Notes: generated from the letters alone by a model not told the origin. A stretch of DNA of 37,439 bases from Bilabrum cf. latius (GCA_965178125.1 OZ237772.1:558001-595439); one strand, 5' to 3'; positions 14,669 to 37,439 are shown, counted from the first letter of the stretch. Numbers and translations: made by a program.

Positions 14669-14917
14669 AGGTTAGGGTTAGGGTTAGGGTTAGGGTTAGG
14701 GTTAGGGTTAGGGTTAGGGTTAGGGTTAGGGTTAGGGTTAGGGTTAGGGTTAGGGTTAGGGTTAGGGTTAGGGTTAGGGTTAGGGTTAGGGTTAGGGTTA
14801 GGGTTAGGGTTAGGGTTAGGGTTAGGGTTAGGGTTAGGGTTAGGGTTAGGGTTAGGGTTAGGGTTAGGGTTAGGGTTAGGGTTAGGGTTAGGGTTAGGGT
14901 TAGGGTTAGGGTTAGGG
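14669..14917 (+). repeat. Internal telomeric tract 1 (TTAGGG)n
   Basis: Perfect TTAGGG hexamers. Confidence 0.99.
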
Positions 14918-17900
14918 TATCTGGGGGTCATGTTAGGATCGGGGCAGACCCTTTTTTTGACCAAAAAATAAAACGCCGCAAATTATATATATTTAGATAG
15001 CCCTTGATCTGTAGATATCCGTAAAAATTTTGTCTAGGGTCGATTTCGCAATATTAAGCGAGATACGCGGAGGTATAGGGTCACCATGTGAGCACCAATT
15101 TTGAAGTGCCAATTTGGGTTGTATGTGGATCGATTGGACTGTGCATGCGTGTATGTGGTTGTTCCCTGTGGCCATCAACGTAGAATACACCGCTCGTGTG
15201 CCCTGTCAGCCCCTCGGCGGCGCCGGTTCCGCAGGCAGCTTGAAATGGCTTGTGCGAGCGGTTTCGCCAAGGGGTCGATCCGGAGTCGATATTGTCAGGC
15301 CCTATCTGACGCGTCTCGATGCGTAGATATCCGTAAAAATTTTGTCTAGGGTCGATTTCTCAATATTAAGCGAGATACGCGGAGGTATAGGGTTGGCACA
15401 TGGGCGTGAGGGCGGCTACTCAGGGGCTGTGTGAGCGGGCCTGTTTGGGTTGTATGTGGATCGATTGGACTGTGCATGCGTGTATGTGGTTGTTCCCTGT
15501 GGCCATCAACGTGGAATACACCGCTCGTGTGCCCTGTCAGCCCCTCGGCGGCGCCGGTTCCGCAGGCAGCTTGAAATGGCTTGTGCGAGCGGTTTCGCCA
15601 AGGGGTCGATCCGGAGTCGATATTGTCAGGCCCTATCTGACGCGTCTCGATGCGTAGATATCCGTAAAAATTTTGTCTAGGGTCGATTTCTCAATATTAA
15701 GCGAGATACGCGGAGGTATAGGGTTGGCACATGGGCGTGAGGGCGGCTACTCAGGGGCTGTGTGAGCGGGCCTGTTTGGGTTGTATGTGGATCGATTGGA
15801 CTGTGCATGCGTGTATGTGGTTGTTCCCTGTGGCCATCAACGTGGAATGCATTGCTCATGTGCCCTGTCAGCCCCTCGGCGGCGCCGGTTCCGCAGGCAG
15901 CTTGAAATGGCTTGTTCGAGCGGTTTCGCCAAGGGGTCGATCCGGAGTCGATATTGTCAGGCCCTATCTGACGCGTCTGGATGCGTAGATATCCGTAAAA
16001 ATTTTGTCTAGGGTCGATTTCTCAATATTAAGCGAGATACGCGGAGGTATAGGGTTGGCACATGGGCGTGAGGGCGGCTACTCAGGGGCTGTGTGAGCGG
16101 GCCTGTTTGGGTTGTATGTGGATCGATTGGACTGTGCATGCGTGTATGTGGTTGTTCCCTGTGGCCATCAACGTGGAATACACCGCTCGTGTGCCCTGTC
16201 AGCCCCTCGGCGGCGCCGGTTCCGCAGGCAGCTTGAAATGGCTTGTGCGAGCGGTTTCGCCAAGGGGTCGATCCGGAGTCGATATTGTCAGGCCCTATCT
16301 GACGCGTCTGGATGCGTAGATATCCGTAAAAATTTTGTCTAGGGTCGATTTCTCAATATTAAGCGAGATACGCGGAGGTATAGGGTTGGCACATGGGCGT
16401 GAGGGCGGCTACTCAGGGGCTGTGTGAGCGGGCCTGTTTGGGTTGTATGTGGATCGATTGGACTGTGCATGCGTGTATGTGGTTGTTCCCTGTGGCCATC
16501 AACGTGGAATTCATTGCTCATGTGCCCTGTCAGCCCCTCGGCGGCGCCGGTTCCGCAGGCGGCTTGAAATGGCTTGTTCGAGCGGTTTCGCCAAGGGGTC
16601 GATCCGGAGTCGATATTGTCAGGCCCTATCTGACGCGTCTGGATGCGTAGATATCCGTAAAAATTTTGTCTAGGGTCGATTTCTCAATATTAAGCGAGAT
16701 ACGCGGAGGTATAGGGTTGGCACATGGGCGTGAGGGCGGCTACTCAGGGGCTGTGTGAGCGGGCCTGTTTGGGTTGTATGTGGATCGATTGGACTGTGCA
16801 TGCGTGTATGTGGTTGTTCCCTGTGGCCATCAACGTGGAATACACCGCTCGTGTGCCCTGTCAGCCCCTCGGCGGCGCCGGTTCCGCAGGCAGCTTGAAA
16901 TGGCTTGTGCGAGCGGTTTCGCCAAGGGGTCGATCCGGAGTCGATATTGTCAGGCCCTATCTGACGCGTCTGGATGCGTAGATATCCGTAAAAATTTTGT
17001 CTAGGGTCGATTTCTCAATATTAAGCGAGATACGCGGAGGTATAGGGTTGGCACATGGGCGTGAGGGCGGCTACTCAGGGGCTGTGTGAGCGGGCCTGTT
17101 TGGGTTGTATGTGGATCGATTGGACTGTGCATGCGTGTATGTGGTTGTTCCCTGTGGCCATCAACGTGGAATTCATTGCTCATGTGCCCTGTCAGCCCCT
17201 CGGCGGCGCCGGTTCCGCAGGCGGCTTGAAATGGCTTGTTCGAGCGGTTTCGCCAAGGGGTCGATCCGGAGTCGATATTGTCAGGCCCTATCTGACGCGT
17301 CTCGATGCGTAGATATCCGTAAAAATTTTGTCTAGGGTCGATTTCTCAATATTAAGCGAGATACGCGGAGGTATAGGGTTGGCACATGGGCGTGAGGGCG
17401 GCTACTCAGGGGCTGTGTGAGCGGGCCTGTTTGGGTTGTATGTGGATCGATTGGACTGTGCATGCGTGTATGTGGTTGTTCCCTGTGGCCATCAACGTGG
17501 AATACACCGCTCGTGTGCCCTGTCAGCCCCTCGGCGGCGCCGGTTCCGCAGGCAGCTTGAAATGGCTTGTGCGAGCGGTTTCGCCGAAGGGTCGATCCGG
17601 AGTCGATATTGTCAGGCCCTATCTGACGCGTCTGGATGCGTAGATATCCGTAAAAATTTTGTCTAGGGTCGATTTCTCAATATTAAGCGAGATACGCGGA
17701 GGTATAGGGTTGGCACATGGGCGTGAGGGCGGCTACTCAGGGGCTGTGTGAGCGGGCCTGTTTGGGTTGTATGTGGATCGATTGGACTGTGCATGCGTGT
17801 ATGTGGTTGTTCCCTGTGGCCATCAACGTGGAATACACCGCTCGTGTGCCCTGTCAGCCCCTCGGCGGCGCCGGTTCCGCAGGCGGCTTGAAATGGCTTG

Positions 17901-19005
17901 TGCGAGCGGTTTCGCCAAGGGGTCGATCCGGAGTCGATATTGTCAGGCCCCATCCGACGCGTCTGGATGCGTAGATATCCGTAAAAATTTTGTCTAGGGT
18001 CGATTTCTCAATATTAAGCGAGATACGCGGAGGTATAGGGTTGGCACATGGGCGTGAGGGCGGCTACTCAGGGGCTGTGTGAGCGGGCCTGTTTGGGTTG
18101 TATGTGGATCGATTGGACTGTGCATGCGTGTATGTGGTTGTTCCCTGTGGCCATCAACGTGGAATTCATTGCTCATGTGCCCTGTCAGCCCCTCGGCGGC
18201 GCCGGTTCCGCAGGCGGCTTGAAATGGCTTGTGCGAGCGGTTTCGCCAAGGGGTCGATCCGGAGTCGATATTGTCAGGCCCTATCTGACGCGTCTGGATG
18301 CGTAGATATCCGTAAAAATTTTGTCTAGGGTCGATTTCTCAATATTAAGCGAGATACGCGGAGGTATAGGGTTGGCTGTGTGGAGTGGGCTAGTGATATG
18401 CATGGTTTGCGTGACAATGAGGATAGTCTTGAATTTGTGCATTTCAATGCTCCCCCTCTTCGGCTTCTGCTGCTGCGGCCGCTTGGCGGGCATCCAGGAC
18501 TCCTGAGATGTAGGCCATGCGCTGCTCCAAGCGTTCCAGTAGCCAGTCTGCATTCTCGCCTTCACGGACATCGCACAGCCGGACCTGGTTTCCAGCTTTG
18601 CGCTTCTGCTTCCCGATCCTCTTGGAGTTGTCCTTGTACTTTTTGACCTCCGACACGGTGATCGGAGCTGCACCTACGGCCGCAGCTTGAGGTGCTGGCG
18701 GGACTGGTGCTTGACCTGCAGCTCCTGCAGCAGCTTGAGGTGCTGGCGGGACTGGTGCTTGACCTGCAGCTCCTGCAGCAGCTTGAGGTGCTGGTGGTGC
18801 CGGTGCTGGACCTGCAGCTCCTGCCGCAGCTTGTAGTGCTGGTGGTGCTGGGGCCGGGGCTGGGGCCTGGGATTTCCCGCGACGAGCTCTTAGGCGACCA
18901 TTCGAGCGCCCTTTGCGGCTCTGCATACCTGATGCATGCATCTCCGCCTCCTCCTCTGCCTTCTCTTCGTCGAAATCAGATCCCTCCTCGTCGTTCCCGG
19001 AGTCG
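14918..19005 (-). mobile_element. Telomere-inserted element family A, distally truncated
   Basis: Flanked by telomere tracts; starts TATCTGGGGGTCATGTTAGGATCGGGG; contains a 331-bp array and a minus-strand ORF cut by the next telomere tract. Confidence 0.75.
15011..18376. repeat. 331-bp tandem satellite: one 312-bp variant, nine full units and a partial unit
   Basis: GTAGATATCCGTAAAAATTTTGTCTAGGG recurs at 15011, 15323 and then every 331 bp to 18302. Confidence 0.97.
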
Positions 19006-19007
19006 TA
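18444..19007 (-). CDS. 5'-truncated family A ORF: acidic segment, four 16-aa APAPPAPQAAAGAAGQ-type repeats, basic/helical C-terminus
   Basis: Frame is open from the telomere junction (YDSGNDEEGSDFDEEKAEEEAEMHAS...) to TGA 18446-18444; no upstream stop. Confidence 0.65.
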   Translation of the reverse strand, partial: YDSGNDEEGSDFDEEKAEEEAEMHASGMQSRKGRSNGRLRARRGKSQAPAPAPAPPALQAAAGAAGPAPAPPAPQAAAGAAGQAPVPPAPQAAAGAAGQAPVPPAPQAAAVGAAPITVSEVKKYKDNSKRIGKQKRKAGNQVRLCDVREGENADWLLERLEQRMAYISGVLDARQAAAAAEAEEGEH

Positions 19008-19454
19008 GGGGGGGGGGTAGGGTTAGGGTTAGGGTTAGGGTTAGGGTTAGGGTTAGGGTTAGGGTTAGGGTTAGGGTTAGGGTTAGGGTTAGGGTTAGGG
19101 TTAGGGTTAGGGTTAGGGTTAGGGTTAGGGTTAGGGTTAGGGTTAGGGTTAGGGTTAGGGTTAGGGTTAGGGTTAGGGTTAGGGTTAGGGTTAGGGTTAG
19201 GGTTAGGGTTAGGGTTAGGGTTAGGGTTAGGGTTAGGGTTAGGGTTAGGGTTAGGGTTAGGGTTAGGGTTAGGGTTAGGGTTAGGGTTAGGGTTAGGGTT
19301 AGGGTTAGGGTTAGGGTTAGGGTTAGGGTTAGGGTTAGGGTTAGGGTTAGGGTTAGGGTTAGGGTTAGGGTTAGGGTTAGGGTTAGGGTTAGGGTTAGGG
19401 TTAGGGTTAGGGTTAGGGTTAGGGTTAGGGTTAGGGTTAGGGTTAGGGTTAGGG
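19006..19454 (+). repeat. Internal telomeric tract 2, irregular proximal start (TA-G10-TAGGG)
   Basis: TTAGGG hexamers. Confidence 0.99.
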
Positions 19455-20762
19455 TATCTAATATAAAGTCAGGGACAGGGTCGGGGAAAAAATATTTTCA
19501 TCTTCATTTTTTTGTCGAAAATGTGCCCTCTGCGATCTCAGCAACTAGAATAGGTATGAAGATGATTCAATTTGTTTTGGGACGGCCTAGGGCCATATCA
19601 TGGGGCAAATGTTCCCCAGGTTCCGTTTTGACCGAGCGGCGACGATACTGGCTGATGAAGATTTACATGCCGAAAATGTGCCCTCTGCGATCTCAGCAAC
19701 TAGAATAGGTATGAAGATGATTCAAACTGTTTTGGGACGGCCTAGGGCCATATCATGGGGCAAATGTTCCCCAGGTTCCGTTTTGACCGCGCGGCGACGA
19801 TACTGGCTGATGAAGATTTACATGCCGAAAATGTGCCCTCTGCGATCTCAGCAACTAGAATAGGTATGAAGATGATTCAAACTGTTTTGAGACGGCCTAG
19901 GGCCATATCATGGGGCAAATGTTCCCCAGGTTCCGTTTTGACCGCGCGGCGACGATACTGGCTGATGAAGATTTACATGCCGAAAATGTGCCCTCTGCGA
20001 TCTCAGCAACTAGAATAGGTATGAAGATGATTCAAACTGTTTTGGGACGGCCTAGGGCCATATCATGGGGCAAATGTTCCCCAGGTTCCGTTTTGACCGC
20101 GCGGCGACGATACTGGCTGATGAAGATTTACATGCCGAAAATGTGCCCTCTGCGATCTCAGCAACTAGAATAGGTATGAAGATGATTCAAACTGTTTTGG
20201 GATGGCCTAGGGCCATATCATGGGGCAAATGTTCCCCAGGTTCCGTTTTGACCGCGCGGCGACGATACTGGCTGATGAAGATTTACATGCCGAAAATGTG
20301 CCCTCTGCGATCTCAGCAACTAGAATAGGTATGAAGATGATTCAAACTGTTTTGGGACGGCCTAGGGCCATATCATGGGGCAAATGTTCCCCAGGTTCCG
20401 TTTTGACCGCGCGGCGACGATACTGGCTGATGAAGATTTACATGCCGAAAATGTGCCCTCTGCGATCTCAGCAACTAGAATAGGTATGAAGATGATTCAA
20501 ACTGTTTTGGGACGGCCTAGGGCCATATCATGGGGCAAATGTTCCCCAGGTTCCGTTTTGACCGCGCGGCGACGATACTGGCTGATGAAGATTTACATGC
20601 CGAAAATGTGCCCTCTGCGATCTCAGCAACTAGAATAGCCGTCCCCGTGAAATCTCCCAGAAATTTCTGGATTCCGGGTCCACATTTGCGACCCAACGAC
20701 ACTCAGGGTCAAATATATCTAAAACAAATGAGTGGAATATAACTATAACCACTAAATAGATT
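19455..20762 (-). mobile_element. Telomere-inserted short non-coding element B1
   Basis: Conserved terminus TATCTAATATAAAGTCAGGGACAGGGTCGGGG, about 7 x 155-bp units, then a ~125-bp unique end. Confidence 0.75.
19516..20638. repeat. 155-bp satellite variant B, ~7.2 copies
   Basis: GAAAATGTGCCCTCTGCGATCTCAGCAAC recurs with a 155-bp period. Confidence 0.97.
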
Positions 20763-21404
20763 TTAGGGTTAGGGTTAGGGTAGGGTTAGGGTTAGGGTTA
20801 GGGTTAGGGTTAGGGTTAGGGTTAGGGTTAGGGTTAGGGTTAGGGTTAGGGTTAGGGTTAGGGTTAGGGTTAGGGTTAGGGTTAGGGTTAGGGTTAGGGT
20901 TAGGGTTAGGGTTAGGGTTAGGGTTAGGGTTAGGGTTAGGGTTAGGGTTAGGGTTAGGGTTAGGGTTAGGGTTAGGGTTAGGGTTAGGGTTAGGGTTAGG
21001 GTTAGGGTTAGGGTTAGGGTTAGGGTTAGGGTTAGGGTTAGGGTTAGGGTTAGGGTTAGGGTTAGGGTTAGGGTTAGGGTTAGGGTTAGGGTTAGGGTTA
21101 GGGTTAGGGTTAGGGTTAGGGTTAGGGTTAGGGTTAGGGTTAGGGTTAGGGTTAGGGTTAGGGTTAGGGTTAGGGTTAGGGGTTAGGGTTAGGGTTAGGG
21201 TTAGGGTTAGGGTTAGGGTTAGGGTTAGGGTTAGGGTTAGGGTTAGGGTTAGGGTTAGGGTTAGGGTTAGGGTTAGGGTTAGGGTTAGGGTTAGGGTTAG
21301 GGTTAGGGTTAGGGTTAGGGTTAGGGTTAGGGTTAGGGTTAGGGTTAGGGTTAGGGTTAGGGTTAGGGTTAGGGTTAGGGTTAGGGTTAGGGTTAGGGTT
21401 AGGG
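20763..21404 (+). repeat. Internal telomeric tract 3
   Basis: TTAGGG hexamers with one TAGGG and one TTAGGGG variant. Confidence 0.99.
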
Positions 21405-21937
21405 TATCTAATATAAAGTCAGGGACAGGGTCGGGGAAAAAATATTTTCATCTTCATTTTTTTGTCGAAAATGTGCCCTCTGCGATCTCAGCAACTAGAA
21501 TAGGTATGAAGATGATTCAAACTGTTTTGGGACGGCCTAGGGCCATATCATGGGGCAAATGTTCCCCAGGTTCCGTTTTGACCGAGCGGCGACGATACTG
21601 GCTGATGAAGATTTACATGCCGAAAATGTGCCCTCTGCGATCTCAGCAACTAGAATAGGTATGAAGATGATTCAAACTGTTTTGGGACGGCCTAGGGCCA
21701 TATCATGGGGCAAATGTTCCCCAGGTTCCGTTTTGACCGCGCGGCGACGATACTGGCTGATGAAGATTTACATGCCGAAAATGTGCCCTCTGCGATCTCA
21801 GCAACTAGAATAGCCGTCCCCGTGAAATCTCCCAGAAATTTCTGGATTCCGGGTCCACATTTGCGACCCAACGACACTCAGGGTCAAATATATCTAAAAC
21901 AAATGAGTGGAATATAACTATAACCACTAAATAGATT
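21405..21937 (-). mobile_element. Telomere-inserted short element B2 (copy of B1 with ~2.2 satellite units)
   Basis: Same two ends as B1, five fewer 155-bp units. Confidence 0.75.
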
Positions 21938-23315
21938 TTAGGGTTAGGGTTAGGGTAGGGTTAGGGTTAGGGTTAGGGTTAGGGTTAGGGTTAGGGTTAG
22001 GGTTAGGGTTAGGGTTAGGGTTAGGGTTAGGGTTAGGGTTAGGGTTAGGGTTAGGGTTAGGGTTAGGGTTAGGGTTAGGGTTAGGGTTAGGGTTAGGGTT
22101 AGGGTTAGGGTTAGGGTTAGGGTTAGGGTTAGGGTTAGGGTTAGGGTTAGGGTTAGGGTTAGGGTTAGGGTTAGGGTTAGGGTTAGGGTTAGGGTTAGGG
22201 TTAGGGTTAGGGTTAGGGTTAGGGTTAGGGTTAGGATTAGGGTTAGGGTTAGGGTTAGGTTAGGGTTAGGGTTAGGGTTAGGGTTAGGGTTAGGGTTAGG
22301 GTTAGGGTTAGGGTTAGGGTTAGGGTTAGGGTTAGGGTTAGGGTTAGGGTTAGGGTTAGGGTTAGGGTTAGGGTTAGGGTTAGGGTTAGGGTTAGGGTTA
22401 GGGTTAGGGTTAGGGTTAGGGTTAGGGTTAGGGTTAGGGTTAGGGTTAGGGTTAGGGTTAGGGTTAGGGTTAGGGTTAGGGTTAGGGTTAGGGTTAGGGT
22501 TAGGGTTAGGGTTAGGGTTAGGGTTAGGGTTAGGGTTAGGGTTAGGGTTAGGGTTAGGGTTAGGGTTAGGGTTAGGGTTAGGGTTAGGGTTAGGGTTAGG
22601 GTTAGGGTTAGGGTTAGGGTTAGGGTTAGGGTTAGGGTTAGGGTTAGGGTTAGGGTTAGGGTTAGGGTTAGGGTTAGGGTTAGGGTTAGGGTTAGGGTTA
22701 GGGTTAGGGTTAGGGTTAGGGTTAGGGTTAGGGTTAGGGTTAGGGTTAGGGTTAGGGTTAGGGTTAGGGTTAGGGTTAGGGTTAGGGTTAGGGTTAGGGT
22801 TAGGGTTAGGGTTAGGGTTAGGGTTAGGGTTAGGGTTAGGGTTAGGGTTAGGGTTAGGGTTAGGGTTAGGGTTAGGGTTAGGGTTAGGGTTAGGGTTAGG
22901 GTTAGGGTTAGGGTTAGGGTTAGGGTTAGGGTTAGGGTTAGGGTTAGGGTTAGGGTTAGGGTTAGGGTTAGGGTTAGGGTTAGGGTTAGGGTTAGGGTTA
23001 GGGTTAGGGTTAGGGTTAGGGTTAGGGTTAGGGTTAGGGTTAGGGTTAGGGTTAGGGTTAGGGTTAGGGTTAGGGTTAGGGTTAGGGTTAGGGTTAGGGT
23101 TAGGGTTAGGGTTAGGGTTAGGGTTAGGGTTAGGGTTAGGGTTAGGGTTAGGGTTAGGGTTAGGGTTAGGGTTAGGGTTAGGGTTAGGGTTAGGGTTAGG
23201 GTTAGGGTTAGGGTTAGGGTTAGGGTTAGGGTTAGGGTTAGGGTTAGGGTTAGGGTTAGGGTTAGGGTTAGGGTTAGGGTTAGGGTTAGGGTTAGGGTTA
23301 GGGTTAGGGTTAGGG
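21938..23315 (+). repeat. Internal telomeric tract 4 (~1.38 kb)
   Basis: TTAGGG hexamers with TAGGG, TTAGGA and TTAGG variants. Confidence 0.99.
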
Positions 23316-23376
23316 TATCTATTATAAAGTCAGGGACAGGGTCGGGGAAAAATATTTTCATCTTCACTTTTTGACA

Positions 23377-25183: not shown

Positions 25184-25220
25184 ATTCATTGTACTTCATT
25201 CAGTGCAAGTATGGCGTATT

Positions 25221-27502: not shown

Positions 27503-27763
27503 GTGGGTTTGGGAATCCAGTGGTTATTGACCGATATTCAATGTTGTGGCTCGTTCTACGTAGCCATATGTATGCGTTAACCTCCTTGGTCGATACATCG
27601 CTTTGACATCAGGTATTCGTTGGCTTATAGTCAAGACTAAATAGATTGCGTCCTGGCTCCTACTATCCCGTCCTAACGGGTCACTGGCTGGCACTCTGGC
27701 AAGCTCCTCTCACAAGCTGGCCCAGCTGCCACTGACCTCAATTGGTATCCGCCTGGCTGCTTT

Positions 27764-29299
27764 TCACTCGTTATCGGAGGAGGGTTCCGCATCGACAGCT
27801 GCCAGGAGCGCCTCAACAGCGTCCACGTCTGCTGCATTGAGATCTCCTTCCGCCGTCTTCTCGAGGGCCGTCATCAGGCCTACGAGCGTGCCCAACCCGT
27901 CGTCCCTCTCTTGAATTGTTTCCTGCACGTCCTCGAGCATGTCGTCGAGAGTTCGGCTGACGCCCAGCGCTATGTCATCGCAGGCAGCGAGGATGCGGTC
28001 CACCAGGTGCCGCTGCTAGTCGGTGAAGCCGTTGTCATCCACTCCACCGTCGTTCTCAGAGTCGTCTTGCTGGTTCTGGGCCTCGTTCTCTTCTTCCTCA
28101 TCCAGCTCGTCCTGATCCTCCTCGTCCTGCTGCACGAGTTCTATCGGAGCCTCATCCTCGTCCTCTTCATCGGCTGCGTCTGCGTGGTATCGATCACCGA
28201 TCTCCTCTTCATCCTCCTCAGAGTCCTGTCGAGGCAGTGATGCTGCTGCTCCACTCCTTGCGCCTCTTGCTCCCCTCTTGTCCTGGCCAACGGCGTGGCG
28301 AGCTCCTCCGCCATAGCCCGGTTGGAGAATGGGCGATCGCTTGTGCTGTATCTTAGCCCGAGGTGCCGCTTCAGTCGCCTTCCTGCGCTCCGGTTCTGCC
28401 GGTTGCGCACCTTCATCCCTCGGCTTTCCCTTTGACTTTCCCTTTGACTTGCCCGCGGCCTTGGTCCTGGCCTTCAATTTGGCCTTTGCCTTTTCCCTGG
28501 CCTTGGCCTCCGCTCTCCGCTTGGGGCCGAGTAGGTCGTTGTTCAGTCGCTCGGTCTATGAGTCGCTGGACTCTGAGCCGTCTGAATCTTGCTCGCCTCG
28601 TTTCCTCTGGGCCTTGTAGGCACTGTGGTCCGCGACACCGTCGTCGGGGTCGTCCTCGTCGTCGTCGACCATGGCACTCCGTTTGTCCTTGCCAGCACGG
28701 GGTGCTCCACTCGGCGAAGCAGCAGCGGCTCCCGCAGAAGCATCTTGGTCCCCTGCGGCTGCCGCGGCAGAGTCCTTGACTGCCATGTCAAACACGTCTT
28801 GGAACACAGCCTGCATGCCTCCACGCGCACGCACAGAGGCTTTCCCAGCTCCGTAGTCGCAGACGAACTTGATCGCGGTCTTGTAGTTCCTCCGCAAGCC
28901 ATCCATGCCTGCCTTGAACCAAGGATTGTGGCTGGTAGAGTAGCCGCTGTCGCGCAGGCCCATGAGCATCTAATTCATCTTGCGGTAGCCTGGCGAGCTG
29001 GTGCCGCTAGTTGATGCAGCCGGATATAGGCGGTGACTCAGCACCTTCAGCATGTCAGGCGGCAGATCGGACTCATTCAGGTCCAGCATGGCATCCACGC
29101 AGGCTTTGATGCCCTCTTTCTTGGTCCCCTAGTAGTGCTCGGTAGACCCGCAGAGTAACCCGCAATCTTGGTGGAGGCCCACGAGGGAGATCAGCAGGAC
29201 TTGCTTGGCAGCAGACGTGCTGACGCCTGAAGCCAGGGCAGCCACGACGGGGCGGGAGGCCTTGGTGTGCTTGACGCTGTAGCTCTTTGCGGCGGCCAT
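27764..29299 (-). CDS. Element ORF1, 511 aa, unknown: globular N-terminus, Lys/Ala-rich and Asp/Glu-rich middle, helical/coiled-coil-like C-terminus
   Basis: Four same-frame track ORFs joined by TAGs at 29131, 28972, 28558 and 28018. ATG 29299 (MAAAKSYSVKHTKA), TGA 27766-27764. The C-terminal part is conserved in copies D1 and D2. Confidence 0.8.
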
Positions 29300-29517
29300 A
29301 GTACTCTGCGGTGCTGGGGGAACACGGGTAAGGCCACGAACAGGCGCTTGGATGCGGCAGCGAACACGGACATGAGACCCAGGGAGTCTCCAGGGCAAGC
29401 TCGAGGGCAAAGAAAAAGAAGGCCACGACCCCGCGCACTCGGTCTCAGACCCGGGACCCATGATGTTAGGTCGATCCCCCAGTCGTGGGGGGGCGGACCC
29501 CAGCCCAGAAAAAAATT

Positions 29518-29606
29518 AAAAAAGATCGCCCCAACGGGAATCGAACCTCGGGGGTAGGCCTGGGTGCGATTACCAACCGTACGCAATACCACTACACCAC
29601 CACAGC
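29518..29606 (-). ncRNA. tRNA-like Pol III unit (degenerate, anticodon-loop-like TTGGTAA); not a canonical tRNA
   Basis: A box TGGTGTAGTGG (29599-29589) at +8, B box GGTTCGATTCC (29547-29537), followed by T6 and T7 runs. Acceptor, D and T stems pair poorly. Confidence 0.6.
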
Positions 29607-30180
29607 AACCCACGCGAAACCGAAAAAAAAATACAGATTCGCATCAAAAGTGCACGCAACTTGCACTTGTCACGCCGAAACCTACCCGTTCACCCAACGA
29701 GCAGCGCGAAATCAGAAACACTCATATTGCGCTCCTTGTATTCAATTGCAGAGGCGCATACTTGGCATATAGCTACTATAGCATATTGTGCATACAACCC
29801 TAAAGCAAACGTGAGTCAAATCGATGGGGTATGCGTGGGGATTGCCTTGCGCAATGCGCTTGCTGCAACGTGGTTCAGACGTTTGGCTCAATTGCGCGAC
29901 GGCAAGCACTCGTTGGAACTAATCTCGCGCATATTATCAAATAATATAACATACTGCAAACAATTGCGCGGCGATATATAGGCTGCGCGCCCAATGCTCA
30001 CTTTGCTTGCGGCAGGTGTGCTGCGACAACATTTGTGGTGGCCCGGATCAGGTTGCGGAACCTGATGCGCGGCACCGCCGTGACGAGTGCGCCACCAGGG
30101 AACAACGCATCGTACCATCATACTAATCACATCCCAAGTATATTATATATCCTTGTGGCATCTCTGTCCGCAGTCTGGTC

Positions 30181-32436
30181 ATGGCGCAGTCCACGTACGA
30201 CGCCACCAAGCATGTGAAGGCTCTCGACTACCTTCGGGCCTTCCTGGACCGCCGCGCGAAGGGCTACGCTCAGAACCCGCATCGCGTGCGCATCGGAGTC
30301 CCAGGGCCACTTCAACCAGGAGGTGCCGCCCTGCCTGGCCCGCCGGCCGGCGAGGCGCAGGCCCAGATCCCGGCCCAGGTGGGGCCAGCGCCAGGCGGCC
30401 ATGCCGCCGGGGGGGGCGATGCGGCAGGCCTGCCGGCCCCCGCCCCAGCCATCGGCGAGCATGCTCCGGAGCCCCAGCACCAGCAGCAAGAGGGCGCCCA
30501 CCAACCACCACCTGGTGCAGCTCTTGCTGCTGGCCAGCAGGCGATGGCCGCCGCCCCGCCCCAGCACCCCGCTGGTCCGGGTGCCAACCTGCCGGTCCCA
30601 GGAGGCTTGCAGCCCGAGCCGCCAGCTGGCGATGCCGACGCCTTCCTCCCGATCCCGGAGCCCCAGCAGGAGCCTGCAGGTGGGCCAGCCGGCGTCGGTC
30701 CGGCCCCTCCAGCAGCCGAGCAGCAGCCAGCTGCCCAGGCTGCCCAGCACCAACTCGTCCCTGGGCCCGTGCCTCTCGCCGAGGTGCCCGTCCTGGCCGG
30801 GGTCGGCGCAGGGGAGGACGCGATGGAGGACGACGAGCCCCCAGAAGCGGTCCAGGCCATCTTCCTCGGGCGCCAAGCCGCCCACGCGGCCACCCAGGCA
30901 GCTCGGCAGGCCATGGTCTGGGATGCTCAGGGCCAGCAGCCGCTCTTCGGGGCAGAGGGAGGAGCGCCCGAGCTGCCCATCCCCGGAGTCGTGTTCGCTG
31001 CCGGTGCAGAGGCAGCCGGCGCCCAAGGCGGTGGCGCAGGCCCAGACGCCGGAGGGGAGGTCGGTGCGCCACCCGTGCAGGCGTGGAACCTGGTCGTCGG
31101 CGACCCGGGGGGAGCGCAGGGAGAGGAGGCCCTGGCCGTCAACCTCCCGCCCGAGTACCGGTTCGGCATGCACGAGGCGACGGACGACCTCGCGCAGCAC
31201 CCCATGCTGGCCTACCACATATGGGAGGTGGACGACGAGGCGGTGCAGGCCCTGCAGGGCCTGCTGACCTGCGTTGGCAGGCAGGAGCTGCCTCCCGAGG
31301 TGTGGAGGGCGCTCGCACCTCCAGTGATGGAGACGGTGACCATGCAAGGCATGCGGCGCTGGTGGGCGTACCAGAGGCGCGCCGTTGTCGTCGTGGACAG
31401 CCTCCTGCATGCCGAGACTGATGCTGCCGGCGTGGAGCAGCGCGCGCAGAGGCGCGGCCGCTTTCTCGTGCAGCTCGTTGGCTGGACTGACATCACCAAG
31501 ATGCTGGAGAGCGAAGACCTGAACGAGGAAGGGGCTGCCTTCATTCGGAGCAAGCTGGCTTCGGTGGCGGTCAGCTTCTGGCCGTCTCCGATGCTGGCGG
31601 AGCCCGGGCTGCACAGCCACAAGCTCTCTCCGCTCCGCACGGAGTGGGATCACTACATCGAGTACAACCGCGTGGACGAGACGGTCTTTGACGCGGTCGG
31701 GCTCTCCGAGCAGCCTCCAGCGTTCGTGTACGAGGACGAGGACGAGGACGAGATGGAGGAGGGGCCGGCGGCGCAGCCGGCTGGGGCGGAGGAGCATGCA
31801 GAGGGCGACGAAGATGCCGGGTATGAGGCTGGAGAAGGCGAGTGGGGTGGGGAAGGCCAGTGGGACTCGGACGGAGACCAAGGCGGCGACGAGGAAGCGG
31901 ATGGTGGAGATCCTGCCGCGGGGGCTTTCGGAGCTGCGGATGCCGAGCTGGAAGGCGAGCCTGAAGAGGAGCAGGAGGCCGCCCCGGATGTGCTGCGGAA
32001 CCCACCAGACGGCATGGCGGCCCCCGTGGCGGTCCGCTCTGAGCTCTCCGATGTCGACGCCATGGAGGTGGTCGGGATCCTAGCCGGCGCCGGAGCCTCC
32101 CAGGAGGTGCAGACCAGCCCGTTCATGCTGGTGCTTGGGGGGCCGGTGTCACGGCTCCTGCTGGACGAGCCGCTGGACCAAGCCTACGGCCTCATCGACG
32201 TGCTGATTGGAGCCGACTCGGCGACGCAGGATGGGGTCCTCTGCGGGCGCAGGGGTCTGCAGAGGGACGGGGGGCAGATCAGGGTGCAGTCGGCCACGCA
32301 GCAGCACCAGCGCACCGAGGTGGAGACGAGCGGCTCATCCAGGCCCCGGCTCGGCTACAGCATCGTCTTCAACCGGCACATCCCCACGTAGGAGCGGGAC
32401 AATCCCGGCACGCCGAGGACTCACGGCGCGTACTAC
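30181..32436 (+). CDS. Element ORF2, >750 aa, unknown, 3'-truncated by the telomere tract
   Basis: 736-codon GC3-rich ORF. Its apparent stop is TAG 32389-32391; read-through (ERDNPGTPRTHGAYY) runs into TTAGGG with no TAA/TGA. Confidence 0.75.
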
Positions 32437-32713
32437 TTAGGGTTAGGGTTAGGGTTAGGGGTTAGGGTTAGGGTTAGGGTTAGGGTTAGGGTTAGGGTTA
32501 GGGTTAGGGTTAGGGTTAGGGTTAGGGTTAGGGTTAGGGTTAGGGTTAGGGTTAGGGTTAGGGTTAGGGTTAGGGTTAGGGTTAGGGTTAGGGTTAGGGT
32601 TAGGGTTAGGGTTAGGGTTAGGGTTAGGGTTAGGGTTAGGGTTAGGGTTAGGGTTAGGGTTAGGGTTAGGGTTAGGGTTAGGGTTAGGGTTAGGGTTAGG
32701 GTTAGGGTTAGGG
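32437..32713 (+). repeat. Internal telomeric tract 5
   Basis: TTAGGG hexamers, one extra-G unit near the start. Confidence 0.99.
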
Positions 32714-32775
32714 TATCTAATATAAAGTCAGGGACAGGGTCGGGGAAAAAATATTTTCATCTTCACTTTTTGTCA

Positions 32776-33534
32776 AAAATATGCAACATAGGATCTCGGT
32801 AACCACAGGAGATATGAAGACCGTTGAAACTGCATTGGGACGGCCTAGGTGCACAACATTGGCCAAATGTTCCCCAGGTTCCGTTTCTGCCGCGCGGCGC
32901 CAATATGGGCCAATGAAGATTTGCATGCTGAAAATATGCAACATAGGATCTCGGCAACCACAGGAGATATGAAGACCGTTGAAACTGCATTGGGACGGCC
33001 TAGGTGCACAACATTGGCCAAATGTTCCCCAGGTTCCGTTTCTGCCGCGCGGCGCCAATATGGGCCAATGAAGATTTGCATGCTGAAAATATGCAACATA
33101 GGATCTCGGTAACCACAGGAGATATGAAGACCGTTGAAACTGCATTGGGACGGCCTAGGTGCACAACATTGGCCAAATGTTCCCCAGGTTCCGTTTCTGC
33201 CGCGCGGCGCCAATATGGGCCAATGAAGATTTGCATGCTGAAAATATGCAACATAGGATCTCGGCAACCACAGGAGATATGAAGACCGTTGAAACGGCAT
33301 TAGGACGGCCTAGGTGCACAACATTGGCCAAATGTTCCCCAGGTTCCGTTTCTGCCGCGCGGCGCCAATATGGGCCAATGAAGATTTGCATGCTGAAAAT
33401 ATGCAACATAGGATCTCGGCAACCACAGGAGATATGAAGACCGTTGAAACTGCATTGGGACGGCCTAGGTGCACAACATTGGCCAAATGTTCCCCAGGTT
33501 CCGTTTCTGCCGCGCGGCGCCAATATGGGCCAAT
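32776..33534. repeat. 155-bp satellite variant D, ~4.9 copies
   Basis: AAAATATGCAACATAGGATCTCGG recurs with a 155-bp period. Confidence 0.96.
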
Positions 33535-33802
33535 GGTGAAGTTGATGTCTACATGAATTGCGTTGTTTGTGTATTGAAAGTATTGGTGGAGATGGCATTG
33601 CATTTGATTTATGGATTGTTTTGATATGAGGTACTGATTGGCTTACAGTCAAGACGAAGGGTTGGGCTAACCGAAACCCTCATACTGCGTCCTAACGGGT
33701 CACTGGCCGACACATTGGCAAACCCCTCTCACAAGCTGGCCCAGCAGCCACTGATCTCATGTGCCATTCTTCTGGCTGGCTCTCACTTCGCCTGGCTGCT
33801 TT

Positions 33803-34111
33803 TCACTCGTCATCGGAGGAGGGTTCCGCACCGACAGCTGCCAGGAGCGCCTCCACAGCGTCCACGTCTGCCGCATTGAGATCTCCTTCCGCCGTCTTCT
33901 CGAGGGCCGTCATCAGGTCTGCGAGCATGCCCAATCCCTGGTCCCTCTCTTGAATTGTTTCCTGCACGTCCTCGACCATGTCGTCGAGAGTCCGGCTGAC
34001 GCCCAGCGCGGTGTCATCGCAGGCAGCGAGGATGCGGTCCACCAGGTGCCGCTGCTAGTCGGTGAAGCCATTGTCCTCCACTCCACCGTCGTTCTCAGAG
34101 TCGTCTTGCTG
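33803..34111 (-). pseudogene. 5'-truncated ORF1 fragment (last ~100 codons)
   Basis: QDDSENDGGVEDNGFTD*QRHLVDRILAACDD...EPSSDDE, homologous to ORF1 of element C. Confidence 0.85.
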
Positions 34112-34156
34112 TTAGGGTAGGGGTTAGGGGGGGGTAGGGGGTTTAGGTTAGGGTTA

Positions 34157-34187
<31 letters not shown>

Positions 34188-34801
34188 GGTTAGGGTTAGG
34201 GTTAGGGTTAGGGTTAGGGTTAGGGTTAGGGTTAGGGTTAGGGTTAGGGTTAGGGTTAGGGTTAGGGTTAGGGTTAGGGTTAGGGTTAGGGTTAGGGTTA
34301 GGGTTAGGGTTAGGGTTAGGGTTAGGGTTAGGGTTAGGGTTAGGGTTAGGGTTAGGGTTAGGGTTAGGGTTAGGGTTAGGGTTAGGGTTAGGGTTAGGGT
34401 TAGGGTTAGGGTTAGGGTTAGGGTTAGGGTTAGGGTTAGGGTTAGGGTTAGGGTTAGGGTTAGGGTTAGGGTTAGGGTTAGGGTTAGGGTTAGGGTTAGG
34501 GTTAGGGTTAGGGTTAGGGTTAGGGTTAGGGTTAGGGTTAGGGTTAGGGTTAGGGTTAGGGTTAGGGTTAGGGTTAGGGTTAGGGTTAGGGTTAGGGTTA
34601 GGGTTAGGGTTAGGGTTAGGGTTAGGGTTAGGGTTAGGGTTAGGGTTAGGGTTAGGGTTAGGGTTAGGGTTAGGGTTAGGGTTAGGGTTAGGGTTAGGGT
34701 TAGGGTTAGGGTTAGGGTTAGGGTTAGGGTTAGGGTTAGGGTTAGGGTTAGGGTTAGGGTTAGGGTTAGGGTTAGGGTTAGGGTTAGGGTTAGGGTTAGG
34801 G
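34112..34801 (+). repeat. Internal telomeric tract 6, highly irregular first ~55 bp
   Basis: Variant units (TAGGGG, long G run, TTTAGG, TTAGG), then perfect TTAGGG. Confidence 0.99.
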
Positions 34802-34863
34802 TATCTAATATAAAGTCAGGGACAGGGTCGGGGAAAAAATATTTTCATCTTCACTTTTTGTCA

Positions 34864-35622
34864 AAAATATGCAACATAGGATCTCGGTAACCACAGGAGA
34901 TATGAAGACCGTTGAAACTGCATTGGGACGGCCTAGGTGCACAACATTGGCCAAATGTTCCCCAGGTTCCGTTTCTGCCGCGCGGCGCCAATATGGGCCA
35001 ATGAAGATTTGCATGCTGAAAATATGCAACATAGGATCTCGGCAACCACAGGAGATATGAAGACCGTTGAAACTGCATTGGGACGGCCTAGGTGCACAAC
35101 ATTGGCCAAATGTTCCCCAGGTTCCGTTTCTGCCGCGCGGCGCCAATATGGGCCAATGAAGATTTGCATGCTGAAAATATGCAACATAGGATCTCGGCAA
35201 CCACAGGAGATATGAAGACCGTTGAAACTGCATTGGGACGGCCTAGGTGCACAACATTGGCCAAATGTTCCCCAGGTTCCGTTTCTGCCGCGCGGCGCCA
35301 ATATGGGCCAATGAAGATTTGCATGCTGAAAATATGCAACATAGGATCTCGGCAACCACAGGAGATATGAAGACCGTTGAAACTGCATTGGGACGGCCTA
35401 GGTGCACAACATTGGCCAAATGTTCCCCAGGTTCCGTTTCTGCCGCGCGGCGCCAATATGGGCCAATGAAGATTTGCATGCTGAAAATATGCAACATAGG
35501 ATCTCGGCAACCACAGGAGATATGAAGACCGTTGAAACTGCATTGGGACGGCCTAGGTGCACAACATTGGCCAAATGTTCCCCAGGTTCCGTTTCTGCCG
35601 CGCGGCGCCAATATGGGCCAAT
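34864..35622. repeat. 155-bp satellite variant D, ~4.9 copies
   Basis: Same unit as 32776-33534. Confidence 0.96.
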
Positions 35623-35890
35623 GGTGAAGTTGATGTCTACATGAATTGCGTTGTTTGTGTATTGAAAGTATTGGTGGAGATGGCATTGCATTTGATTTAT
35701 GGATTGTTTTGATATGAGGTACTGATTGGCTTACAGTCAAGACGAAGGGTTGGGCTAACCGAAACCCTCATACTGCGTCCTAACGGGTCACTGGCCGACA
35801 CATTGGCAAACCCCTCTCACAAGCTGGCCCAGCAGCCACTGATCTCATGTGCCATTCTTCTGGCTGGCTCTCACTTCGCCTGGCTGCTTT

Positions 35891-36649
35891 TCACTCGTCA
35901 TCGGAGGAGGGTTCCGCACCGACAGCTGCCAGGAGCGCCTCCACAGCGTCCACGTCTGCCGCATTGAGATCTCCTTCCGCCGTCTTCTCGAGGGCCGTCA
36001 TCAGGTCTGCGAGCATGCCCAATCCCTGGTCCCTCTCTTGAATTGTTTCCTGCACGTCCTCGACCATGTCGTCGAGAGTCCGGCTGACGCCCAGCGCGGT
36101 GTCATCGCAGGCAGCGAGGATGCGGTCCACCAGGTGCCGCTGCTAGTCGGTGAAGCCATTGTCCTCCACTCCACCGTCGTTCTCAGAGTCGTCTTGCTGG
36201 TTCTGGGCCTCGTTCTCTTCTTCCTCATCCAGCTCGTCCCCATCCTCCTCGTCCTGCTGCATGAGCCCTATCGGAGCTTCATCCTCGTCCTGCTCTCTGG
36301 CTGCGTCTGCGTCGTACCGACCACGGATCTCCTCTTCATCTTCGTCAGAGTCCTGTCGAGGCAGTGATGCTGCTGCTCCACTCCTTGCGCCACTTGCTCC
36401 CCTCTTCTCCTGGTCATCGGCGCGGCGAGCTCCTCCGCCATAGCCCGGCTGGAGGACGGACGTTCGTTCGGGCTGCCTCTTAGCCCTAGGCGCGGCTCCA
36501 GCCGCCTTCCGGCCCTTCGGTTCTGGCGGTTGGGTACCCACATCCCTCGACTTGCTCTTGGACTTGCCCTTGGGCTTGCCCGTCGACTTTCCCGCAGCCT
36601 TTGCCCGAGCCTCGGCCTTGGCCTTAGCCTTTTCCCTCGCCTTGGCTTC
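35891..36649 (-). pseudogene. 5'-truncated ORF1 fragment (last ~250 codons)
   Basis: EAKAREKAKAKAEARAK...QPGYGGGA...FTD*QRHLVDRIL...; open frame apart from TAG 36145-36143. Confidence 0.85.
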
Positions 36650-37439
36650 GGGTTAGGGTTAGGTTAGGGTTTTAGGTTAGGGTTAGGGTTAGGGTTAGGG
36701 TTAGGGTTAGGGTTAGGGTTAGGGTTAGGGTTAGGGTTAGGGTTAGGGTTAGGGTTAGGGTTAGGGTTAGGGTTAGGGTTAGGGTTAGGGTTAGGGTTAG
36801 GGTTAGGGTTAGGGTTAGGGTTAGGGTTAGGGTTAGGGTTAGGGTTAGGGTTAGGGTTAGGGTTAGGGTTAGGGTTAGGGTTAGGGTTAGGGTTAGGGTT
36901 AGGGTTAGGGTTAGGGTTAGGGTTAGGGTTAGGGTTAGGGTTAGGGTTAGGGTTAGGGTTAGGGTTAGGGTTAGGGTTAGGGTTAGGGTTAGGGTTAGGG
37001 TTAGGGTTAGGGTTAGGGTTAGGGTTAGGGTTAGGGTTAGGGTTAGGGTTAGGGTTAGGGTTAGGGTTAGGGTTAGGGTTAGGGTTAGGGTTAGGGTTAG
37101 GGTTAGGGTTAGGGTTAGGGTTAGGGTTAGGGTTAGGGTTAGGGTTAGGGTTAGGGTTAGGGTTAGGGTTAGGGTTAGGGTTAGGGTTAGGGTTAGGGTT
37201 AGGGTTAGGGTTAGGGTTAGGGTTAGGGTTAGGGTTAGGGTTAGGGTTAGGGTTAGGGTTAGGGTTAGGGTTAGGGTTAGGGTTAGGGTTAGGGTTAGGG
37301 TTAGGGTTAGGGTTAGGGTTAGGGTTAGGGTTAGGGTTAGGGTTAGGGTTAGGGTTAGGGTTAGGGTTAGGGTTAGGGTTAGGGTTAGGGTTAGGGTTAG
37401 GGTTAGGGTTAGGGTTAGGGTTAGGGTTAGGGTTAGGGT
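36650..37439 (+). repeat. Terminal telomeric tract (probable chromosome end)
   Basis: TTAGGG to the end of the window with the G-strand running 5'->3' outward; irregular first units. Confidence 0.95.

What the first reader, a model, noticed from the sequence alone, without database searches (positions are those of the whole stretch)
14669..37439. Chromosome end built from a polar array of telomere-attached elements with a fixed proximal end and variable distal truncation
Seen: six inserts (A, B1, B2, C, D1, D2) alternate with TTAGGG tracts, all in the same orientation. All start at one junction; A, C, D1 and D2 are cut mid-ORF distally. D1 and D2 are near-identical yet truncated at different points. 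No poly(A) or long TIR. Known: this geometry matches telomere-primed retroelements (Penelope-like Athena/Terminons, Magnaporthe MoTeR, Drosophila HeT-A/TART). Inference: repeated cycles of element addition to the G-overhang followed by telomerase capping extended this end by ~23 kb beyond tract 1. The proteins are unrecognised and no RT is present, so this may be an undescribed family.
Basis: partly seen in the sequence, partly recalled or inferred. Interest (0 to 1): 0.92.

Follow-up and report, generated by a model that had tools for sequence, protein, structure and literature searches.

The report
Telomere-interleaved element array at chromosome end
The last 23 kb of this chromosome consist of six same-direction copies of unknown elements, each attached to a stretch of telomere repeats and most cut short at the outer end, which shows that the end is repeatedly broken, re-capped and extended; whether the copying goes through RNA or DNA is still open.

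Summary
Seven TTAGGG tracts, all on the + strand, alternate with six co-oriented inserts: A, B1, B2, C, D1 and D2. All six start with TATCT straight after a complete TTAGGG. A, C, D1 and D2 end at four different distal points, and each end is capped by a new tract.

The inserts fall into two unrelated families, A and B/C/D. Both have the same layout: TATCT head, a family-specific tandem array, then a C-strand ORF.

No test supports a retroelement. There is no RT or any other Pfam domain, no hammerhead ribozyme, no poly(A) and no TIR. The proteins are orphans. C also carries an opposite-strand gene with its own intron. B1 and B2 share one distal end and the same first 23 bp of cap, which is a signature of DNA-level duplication.

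My best reading (0.45) is cycles of end breakage, telomerase healing and DNA-templated copying primed from the telomere tract (break-induced replication, BIR, or unequal exchange). A HeT-A-like, trans-mobilised retroelement stays a serious rival (0.33). The identical TATCT junction in two unrelated families favours it.

I rate this a new variant of a known kind, interest about 0.6.

The parts
14672..14917 (+). Telomere tract 1: 41 perfect TTAGGG repeats directly after unique host DNA (...AATTAAACAGG|TTAGGG). The last host gene, a GH16 glucanase, lies about 0.5 kb proximal.
14918..19022 (-). Element A: TATCT head; 331-bp tandem repeat x9.9 (15113-18376); the 3' part of a C-strand ORF (19004-18447, stop TGA 18444-18446). 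It is cut distally, and the cap starts with the irregular GTAGGGGGGGGGGTAGGG.
19023..19454 (+). Telomere tract 2: 72 perfect repeats.
19455..20762 (.). Element B1: TATCT head of about 60 nt; 155-bp repeat x7.2; a 130-bp unique tail ending ...AAATAGATT. It has no ORF.
20763..21404 (+). Telomere tract 3: (TTAGGG)3 TAGGG (TTAGGG)66 G (TTAGGG)37.
21405..21937 (.). Element B2: the same head and the same tail as B1, 99.5% identical, but with only 2.2 copies of the 155-bp repeat.
21938..23315 (+). Telomere tract 4 (1378 bp). It starts with the same (TTAGGG)3 TAGGG as tract 3.
23316..32436 (-). Element C (9.1 kb), the longest copy: head; 155-bp repeat x11.7 (23377-25187); 22-bp hairpin-forming minisatellite x103 (25222-27497); ORF1; divergent promoter region; ORF2. 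It is cut distally at 32436.
27767..29299 (-). ORF1 of C: 511 codons, 4 in-frame TAG, ends TGA. The start Met is set by the 87-aa database relative P0002. dN/dS against the D2 copy is 0.39. It has no Pfam family.
29811..30173 (+). Intron-shaped segment (GTGAGT...CAG) ending 7 nt upstream of the ORF2 ATG. One contig of run X6 lacks it.
30181..32436 (+). ORF2 of C: at least 737 codons from the ATG, in a 70% GC region. The TAG at 32389 is a sense codon, so the frame is open into the cap and the ORF is truncated at its 3' end. It is an orphan.
32437..32713 (+). Telomere tract 5: (TTAGGG)4 G (TTAGGG)42.
32714..34111 (-). Element D1: head; 155-bp repeat x4.9; the last 102 codons of ORF1. It is cut at 1398 bp.
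34112..34801 (+). Telomere tract 6: 54 bp of irregular repeats, then 106 perfect repeats.
34802..36652 (-). Element D2: equals D1 except for 3 of 1398 positions, but extends to 1851 bp and holds the last 253 codons of ORF1.
36653..37439 (+). Terminal telomere tract: 24 bp of irregular repeats, then 127 perfect repeats up to the contig end.

Best explanation
SHOWN. This is a chromosome end. Unique host genes run to within about 0.5 kb of a first telomere tract. Everything distal to it (22.5 kb) is an array of six co-oriented elements from two unrelated families, each preceded by a TTAGGG tract.

Every element begins with TATCT after a complete TTAGGG. A family-specific tandem array follows (331 bp in A, 155 bp in B/C/D). 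In A, C and D a C-strand ORF comes next, with its stop codon facing the head. Four elements end at different internal points. Each distal end carries a new tract that starts with irregular repeats and becomes perfect further out.

INFERRED (most likely). The array grew by repeated cycles of three steps:
1. The terminal telomere is lost, or a break occurs in the outermost element.
2. Telomerase adds a telomere de novo to the exposed internal sequence (healing). This gives the variable distal truncation and the irregular first repeats.
3. The telomeric 3' end later invades the TTAGGG tract that precedes an element copy on the sister chromatid or on another chromosome end, and copies that DNA outward (break-induced replication or unequal exchange).

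Because step 3 always starts inside a telomere tract, the proximal junction is inherited unchanged, while the distal end is whatever the donor had. On this view the elements are subtelomeric, gene-carrying DNA modules (ORF1 plus the divergent, intron-bearing ORF2). They spread passively through their flanking telomere tracts, as yeast Y' elements do or as MoTeR arrays do when they extend by BIR. They are not autonomous retrotransposons.
For: - B1 and B2 share the same distal boundary and the same first 23 bp of cap, (TTAGGG)3TAGGG. They differ only in repeat number and in the later part of the tract. In MoTeR arrays, shared truncation points and shared variant-repeat configurations were taken as evidence of BIR or D-loop duplication (PMC7367193, passages).
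- Both near-identical pairs (B1/B2 and D1/D2) are adjacent, as local duplication predicts.
- C contains two divergent transcription units. ORF2 is on the + strand with its own canonical intron directly before its ATG.
- No RT, endonuclease, Gag knuckle or any other Pfam domain was found in 3 element ORFs or in 10 further frames. This covers 9.1 kb measured from the supposed 3' end.
- There is no hammerhead ribozyme or other Rfam family (0 hits at gathering threshold; in the E<=1 scan, 21 of 22 matches were spurious miRNA hits on the 22-bp repeat and 1 was a Fibro-purF match at E=0.61).
- There is no poly(A) at any of the 6 junctions.
- C is identical to single-copy-depth contigs of run X1 (1 mismatch in 1923 nt). 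The X1 contig seems to continue 1993 nt past the cut. That fits a recent in-situ truncation of a longer copy.
- Each cap is irregular at its base and perfect distally, so each tract once was a working terminal telomere.
Against: - Passive copying does not explain why two families with no other detectable similarity share the same pentamer TATCT in the same repeat phase. For independent origins the chance is roughly 1 in 6000 (my estimate).
- There are four different truncation points among six elements, so whole telomeres must have been lost at least four times.
- In both families the ORF next to the head lies on the C-strand with its 3' end toward the head. That is the orientation a telomere-primed cDNA needs.
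- Elements are attached to long, perfect tracts (41-176 perfect repeats), not to the critically short ones that usually trigger BIR.
- No other chromosome end could be examined, so no donor copy has been shown.
Confidence: 0.45

Rival explanations
1. Telomere-primed retroelements. A C-strand RNA with 3' end ...AGAUA, possibly followed by CCCUAA read-through, pairs with or abuts the G-overhang. It is reverse-transcribed from the chromosomal 3' OH. Incomplete cDNA synthesis gives the 5' (distal) truncation, and telomerase then caps the cDNA. The visible copies would be non-autonomous or 5'-truncated, like HeT-A: an ORF1 followed by a long repeat-rich 3' UTR. The RT would be encoded further upstream in the full element, or in trans.
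For: - 6 of 6 elements have a fixed proximal end and are co-oriented; 4 have different distal cuts capped by telomere.
- Two otherwise unrelated families share the identical GGG|TATCT junction.
- In both families the ORF next to the head is on the C-strand with its 3' end toward the head, followed by a tandem-repeat '3' UTR'.
- ORF1 is under purifying selection, dN/dS 0.39.
- In run X1 the head-proximal part of ORF1 has 2-3 times the summed contig depth of the distal part, which is the gradient expected from 5' truncation.
- Attachment is to long, perfect tracts.
- The same geometry is described for Athena/Terminons (passages) and for MoTeR.
Against: - No RT or any other domain in the visible 9.1 kb, although RT is normally the ORF nearest the 3' end.
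- No hammerhead ribozyme and no poly(A).
- ORF2 is an antisense, intron-bearing gene with its own promoter region inside C.
- B1 and B2 share a boundary and a cap variant.
- Similarity of the head beyond TATCT between A and B/C/D is not above shuffled controls: 70-419 of 1000 shuffles reach the observed score.
Confidence: 0.33
2. Assembly artefact or population heterogeneity. The contig chains reads from several chromosome ends, or from a minority of cells, through shared telomere tracts. In that case the six-element order does not exist on one molecule in most cells.
For: No long read could be checked. A contig of run X1, at single-copy depth (11.6, against 10.9-11.3 for neighbouring contigs), covers 30514-32436 and appears to continue 1993 nt past 32436 rather than into telomere repeats.
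Against: - Tracts of 246-1378 bp are shorter than ordinary long reads.
- The junctions between unique sequence and telomere repeats (A, C, D1, D2) cannot be created by repeat collapse, so they must exist in reads.
- All junctions are consistent in phase and orientation.
- X1 may be another isolate, and the direction of its overhang rests on my reading of the table's convention.
Confidence: 0.07
3. A DNA-based mobile or episomal element with a defined TATCT terminus. It would be joined to, or inserted into, telomere repeats by a site-specific nuclease or recombinase, or by end-joining of a linear episome.
For: The junction pentamer and the repeat phase are identical in two families. B is flanked on both sides by in-phase TTAGGG and has a 5-bp inverted match, ATCTA...TAGAT.
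Against: There is no TIR of 14 nt or more. No transposase, recombinase or polymerase domain was found. Only one end is conserved. The distal ends are internal truncations, not element termini.
Confidence: 0.08

Closest known systems
Endonuclease-deficient Penelope-like elements (Athena, Coprina) and Terminons
   Same: They sit at chromosome ends and form head-to-tail arrays in one orientation. Copies are 5'-truncated and capped by telomeric repeats. They can be very long, with many accessory ORFs, and host genes can be captured between copies (passages).
   Different: Those elements encode a PLE-type RT. They also carry a hammerhead ribozyme next to a short reverse-complement telomere stretch at the 3' end. 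Here I found no RT in 9.1 kb and no hammerhead motif. The interstitial tracts are long (246-1378 bp), not short stretches.
MoTeR (Magnaporthe) and FoTeR (Fusarium) telomeric non-LTR retrotransposons
   Same: Arrays lie inside TTAGGG telomeres. Truncated copies are capped by new telomere. Arrays are remodelled by breaks at interstitial tracts, healing, BIR and D-loop duplication (PMC7367193, passages; for FoTeR I saw only the abstract in the listing).
   Different: MoTeR1 encodes an RT, and intact copies carry TTCGGG(TTTGGG)n variant repeats at the 5' end. Neither is seen here. The MoTeR paper states that interstitial tracts of three or more repeats are unstable, yet here tracts of 41-229 repeats persist.
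Drosophila HeT-A / TART / TAHRE
   Same: Polar head-to-tail arrays with the 3' ends toward the centromere and variable 5' truncation. HeT-A has a single non-RT ORF and a long 3' UTR, and relies on an RT supplied in trans (recalled; review PMC5537684 seen as abstract only).
   Different: Drosophila has no telomerase repeats between elements, and its junctions carry oligo(A). Here there are TTAGGG tracts and no poly(A). No Gag-like domain was detected.
Yeast Y' elements / recombination-based (type I, ALT-like) subtelomere amplification
   Same: Co-oriented subtelomeric modules that carry genes, are separated by interstitial telomere tracts, and spread by BIR primed from telomere repeats (recalled; BIR at telomeres is discussed in PMC7367193).
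   Different: Y' copies are full-length units with a helicase ORF. Here there are two unrelated families, orphan ORFs, and four different healed truncation points.

Membership tests
EN-deficient Penelope-like elements (Athena/Coprina/Terminon) | PLE-type reverse transcriptase ORF | tested here: not met
   No Pfam family at E<=0.1 in 3 element ORFs or in 10 further frames. Caveat: C is truncated, and about 2 kb more may exist.
EN-deficient Penelope-like elements (Athena/Coprina/Terminon) | Hammerhead ribozyme motif at the 3' end | tested here: not met
   Rfam gave 0 hits at gathering threshold. At E<=1 over 14600-37439 there was no hammerhead.
EN-deficient Penelope-like elements (Athena/Coprina/Terminon) | Short reverse-complement telomere stretch belonging to the element's 3' end | tested here: inconclusive
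   The head abuts a long genomic tract directly, so an element-borne stretch cannot be told apart from the tract.
EN-deficient Penelope-like elements (Athena/Coprina/Terminon) | Co-oriented copies, 5'-truncated and capped by telomere repeats | tested here: met
   6 of 6 are co-oriented; 4 have different capped cuts.
MoTeR/FoTeR telomeric non-LTR elements | RT (with restriction-like endonuclease) ORF in the autonomous member | tested here: not met
MoTeR/FoTeR telomeric non-LTR elements | Variant telomere-like repeats at the 5' end of intact copies | tested here: inconclusive
   B1 and B2 both end in (TTAGGG)3TAGGG. No TTCGGG or TTTGGG tracts are present.
Drosophila HTT elements (HeT-A-like) | Oligo(A) at the proximal junction | tested here: not met
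   The junction is TTAGGG|TATCT in 6 of 6; there is no T or A run at the junction.
Drosophila HTT elements (HeT-A-like) | Gag-like ORF (zinc knuckles) followed by a long 3' UTR | tested here: inconclusive
   A C-strand ORF followed by a 0.9-4.4 kb repeat-rich stretch is present, but no Gag or zf-CCHC Pfam hit was found.
Recombination-spread subtelomeric modules (Y'-like) | Co-oriented copies separated by interstitial telomere tracts | tested here: met
Recombination-spread subtelomeric modules (Y'-like) | Copies that share boundaries and tract variants (DNA-level duplication) | tested here: met
   Met for B1/B2 only. A, C, D1 and D2 each have their own boundary.
Recombination-spread subtelomeric modules (Y'-like) | The same blocks present at several chromosome ends | not testable with these tools
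   No genome is held for this window. Diverged copies do exist in public runs.

The most novel reading that the evidence does not exclude
An undescribed, RT-less (trans-mobilised) family of telomere-attached retroelements in a telomerase-positive protist that reads TAG as a sense codon. A C-strand RNA ending in ...AGAUA would be copied directly from the completed ...TTAGGG-3' overhang, by an unlinked RT or by telomerase itself switching template. Two unrelated cargo families (A and B/C/D) would have converged on the same terminal pentamer. That would be a HeT-A-like system living alongside canonical telomerase repeats.
Probability: 0.3. Interest if true: 0.85.

Novelty: new variant of a known kind. 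Interest (0 to 1): 0.6.

Why it matters
Arrays of elements interleaved with telomere tracts record how a chromosome end is lost and rebuilt. This end shows at least four healing events and six additions, some very recent: D1 and D2 differ at 3 of 1398 positions, and C is nearly identical to contigs of an independent run.

If the additions are RNA-templated, this would be a new telomere-specific retroelement lineage with orphan proteins, outside animals and fungi. It would bear on the old question of how telomerase and telomeric retroelements are related.

If the additions are DNA-templated, the end is a clear natural example of ALT-like, BIR-driven subtelomere growth in a cell with active telomerase. 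It would also show unusually long and stable interstitial telomere tracts.

Either way, the identical TATCT junction in two unrelated families is a concrete and testable oddity.

Tried and rejected
- Own genome: not held, so no genome-wide junction census was possible.
- Rfam: no family at gathering threshold. In the E<=1 scan, 21 of 22 matches were miRNA-model hits on the self-complementary 22-bp minisatellite and 1 was a Fibro-purF match at E=0.61. I rejected all as spurious.
- ARAGORN found no tRNA at default settings.
- Elements against the proximal 14.6 kb: no similarity.
- A against C: no nucleotide or protein similarity beyond low-complexity matches.
- Head homology between A and B/C/D beyond TATCT: the MAFFT alignment looked suggestive. 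Unanchored shuffle tests put 387-1382 of 2000 shuffles at or above the observed score. Anchored tests put 70-419 of 1000 there. I dropped it as evidence.
- ORF2 (P0001): no word-based homologs at near lengths; no Atlas hit; no PDB hit at E<=1. HMMER against 1.84 billion representatives found only 2 near-identical fragments, P0003 and P0004. The single-sequence AlphaFold model had pLDDT 42, so I ran no fold search.
- ORF1: one 87-aa relative only, P0002. Its fold and remote homology remain open.
- A's ORF: no homologs at near lengths.
- Metagenome contigs: the head pattern gave 0 hits and ORF2 gave 0 confirmed loci.
- Viral contigs: ORF2 gave 0. The junction pattern gave 1 hit, L001, a 2.1-kb AT-rich contig with a short telomere-like palindrome. 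It is unrelated.
- Sequencing runs: no RNA holder is listed. Runs X6 and X8 are only guessed to be RNA and are probably DNA (contigs up to 51 kb). Nothing can therefore be said about expression, strand or transcript ends, and parts without cover are not evidence.
- No loose end with telomere repeats appears among the 20 loose ends shown; 43 more were not shown. Telomere-like reads may also be filtered, so this is no evidence against other capped copies.
- Literature searches for the organism by its UAG reassignment did not identify it.
The supplementary figures of the MoTeR paper, which hold most of the array maps, were not seen.


Full report
**1. The observation**

The window holds 731 TTAGGG hexamers on the + strand and a single CCCTAA. 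The pattern (TTAGGG)3 matches 699 times, against 0 in shuffles. The hexamers form seven tracts: 14672-14917, 19023-19454, 20763-21404, 21938-23315, 32437-32713, 34112-34801 and 36653-37439, the last at the contig end.

Six inserts lie between the tracts: A (4105 bp), B1 (1308), B2 (533), C (9121), D1 (1398) and D2 (1851). In 6 of 6 the tract ends with a complete, perfect TTAGGG and the insert begins with TATCT.

**2. Relatedness of the inserts**

B, C and D share a head of about 60-75 nt and a 155-bp tandem repeat. B is 77% like C/D, and C is 84-87% like D. The repeat is present in 7.2, 2.2, 11.7, 4.9 and 4.9 copies.

- D1 equals D2 at all but 3 of 1398 positions, yet D1 stops at 1398 bp and D2 at 1851 bp.
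- B1 and B2 are 99.5% identical. They share the same 130-bp tail and the same distal end.
- C has an extra 22-bp minisatellite (x103). Its unit is self-complementary.
- A has a 331-bp repeat (x9.9) and no nucleotide or protein similarity to the others.

A MAFFT alignment suggested a shared head motif between A and B/C/D. Shuffle controls do not support anything beyond the TATCT itself: 387-1382 of 2000 unanchored shuffles and 70-419 of 1000 anchored shuffles reach the observed score.

**3. Genetic code and genes**

The host part of the window carries three genes:
- a sterol O-acyltransferase-like gene with an intron;
- a 1903-codon FG-GAP gene that is open only if its 6 in-frame TAGs are read as sense;
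- a GH16 laminarinase, in which TAG positions align with K, K, Q and K/E/S in solved homologues.

Which amino acid it encodes is not settled.

Read this way, C carries a complete C-strand ORF1 (29299-27767; 511 codons, 4 TAG, ends TGA). Its start is fixed by an 87-aa database relative that is 89% identical and has K at the first TAG position. D1 and D2 keep the last 102 and 253 codons of ORF1, with the same in-frame TAG and the same TGA. dN/dS between C and D2 is 0.39. A ends with the 3' part of a different C-strand ORF.

C also carries ORF2 on the opposite strand, starting at the ATG at 30181. A 363-bp segment with GTGAGT...CAG ends lies directly upstream of that ATG, and one contig of run X6 lacks it. 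ORF2's TAG at 32389 is sense, so ORF2 runs into the cap and is cut at its 3' end.

**4. What the elements are not**

- No Pfam family at E<=0.1 in ORF1, ORF2 or A's ORF, or in 10 further frames.
- No Rfam family, and in particular no hammerhead ribozyme.
- No poly(A) at the junctions and no TIR.
- ORF2 has only two near-identical fragments among 1.84 billion representatives. One fragment comes from a frameshifted copy. ORF2 has no Atlas or PDB match.
- A's ORF has no homologues.

**5. The caps**

Each tract that follows a truncated element begins irregularly and becomes perfect distally:
- A: GTAGGGGGGGGGGTAGGG.
- D1: 54 irregular bp.
- D2: 24 irregular bp.
- C: one extra G after four repeats.

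Each tract therefore looks like a former terminal telomere built on a non-telomeric end. Tracts 3 and 4, which follow B1 and B2, both begin with (TTAGGG)3TAGGG and differ only after that.

**6. Public runs**

Eleven runs from six studies hold part of C's unique region. Four were laid as contigs.
- Many diverged copies are visible. Run X1's 34 laid records split 13/6/6/9 across the identity bands >=99%, 95-99%, 90-95% and <90%.
- In X1 the summed contig depth over the head-proximal part of ORF1 is 2-3 times higher than over the distal part.
- A 3916-nt X1 contig at single-copy depth matches 30514-32436 with 1 mismatch. By my reading of the table, it runs 1993 nt past 32436.

A longer form of C therefore probably exists, and the cut at 32436 is recent. 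No run is on record as RNA, so nothing can be said about transcription.

**7. Mechanism**

Both candidate mechanisms extend the G-strand 3' end on a template, so both give a fixed proximal junction.

For a DNA template (BIR or unequal exchange through the tracts, combined with break-and-heal cycles):
- the shared boundary and shared cap variant of B1 and B2, the criterion used for BIR or D-loop duplication in MoTeR arrays (PMC7367193);
- the adjacency of both near-identical pairs;
- the divergent, intron-bearing ORF2 inside C;
- the lack of any RT, ribozyme or poly(A) hallmark within 9.1 kb of the supposed 3' end.

For an RNA template:
- the identical GGG|TATCT junction in two otherwise unrelated families;
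- four different capped cuts;
- the C-strand orientation of the head-proximal ORF in both families;
- a repeat-rich '3' UTR';
- attachment to long, perfect tracts.

I put DNA-templated growth at 0.45, a HeT-A-like or trans-mobilised retroelement at 0.33, a DNA element with a defined terminus at 0.08, and an assembly or heterogeneity artefact at 0.07.

**8. Comparison with known systems and novelty**

In geometry the array works like Terminon/Athena, MoTeR or HeT-A arrays. It fails the membership tests that could be run: RT, hammerhead ribozyme, poly(A) and variant 5' repeats. It resembles Y'-type modules in being gene-carrying and flanked by telomere tracts. It differs from them in having two unrelated families, orphan proteins and several healed truncations.

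I class it as a new variant of a known kind, with interest about 0.6. It would rank clearly higher if an RNA intermediate were shown.

Noticed in passing
window 4845-10556 (+), 12876-13640 (-): TAG is used as a sense codon in host genes, while TGA ends every frame I followed to its stop (FG-GAP gene, ORF1 in C, D1 and D2, A's ORF). There are 6 in-frame TAGs in a 1903-codon FG-GAP gene. In a GH16 laminarinase the TAGs align with K, K, Q and K/E/S in solved homologues. A nuclear code with only UAG reassigned, in a GC-rich eukaryote with TTAGGG telomeres, is rare. The encoded amino acid is not settled.
   Followed up: partly
window 29524-29608 (-): A weak tRNA-like sequence (85 nt, long variable arm) followed by T6 lies in the region between ORF1 and ORF2 of element C. 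ARAGORN finds it only at a relaxed threshold, and Rfam does not find it.
   Followed up: partly
window 25222-27497: A 22-bp minisatellite (x103, 99% matches) with a self-complementary unit. It produces spurious miRNA-model hits. It is present in C but absent from the D copies.
   Followed up: partly
window 7971-9613: A 36-bp in-frame coding minisatellite (45 copies) that encodes an S/T/P-rich stalk in the FG-GAP protein.
   Followed up: no
window 29811-30173: A 363-bp segment with canonical GTGAGT...CAG ends is absent from one contig of run X6, whose kind is uncertain and is probably DNA. This is either a spliced transcript or an intron presence/absence polymorphism between strains.
   Followed up: partly
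window 30514-32436 and beyond: A 3916-nt contig of run X1 at single-copy depth matches this stretch with 1 mismatch. It seems to continue 1993 nt past the C|telomere junction. A longer form of C probably exists, but its sequence could not be read.
   Followed up: partly
proteins P0003/P0004 (other assembly): A copy of ORF2 that is 97-98% identical in another public assembly is split by a frameshift after ...CVGRQE. At least one copy elsewhere is therefore broken or mis-sequenced.
   Followed up: no
window 19005-19022, 34112-34165, 36653-36676: The first repeats of the caps on A, D1 and D2 are strongly irregular, with G runs of up to 10 plus TAGGG, TTAGG and TTTTAGG. D1 and D2 are too young for this to be mutational decay. 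It points to stuttering de novo addition or to basecalling error.
   Followed up: no
L001 1176-1260: A 2.1-kb AT-rich contig in the viral collection has its first 111 nt repeated at its end. It carries a short telomere-like palindrome, (TTAGGG)n...TATCT...(AAACCT)n. It is unrelated to the elements.
   Followed up: no
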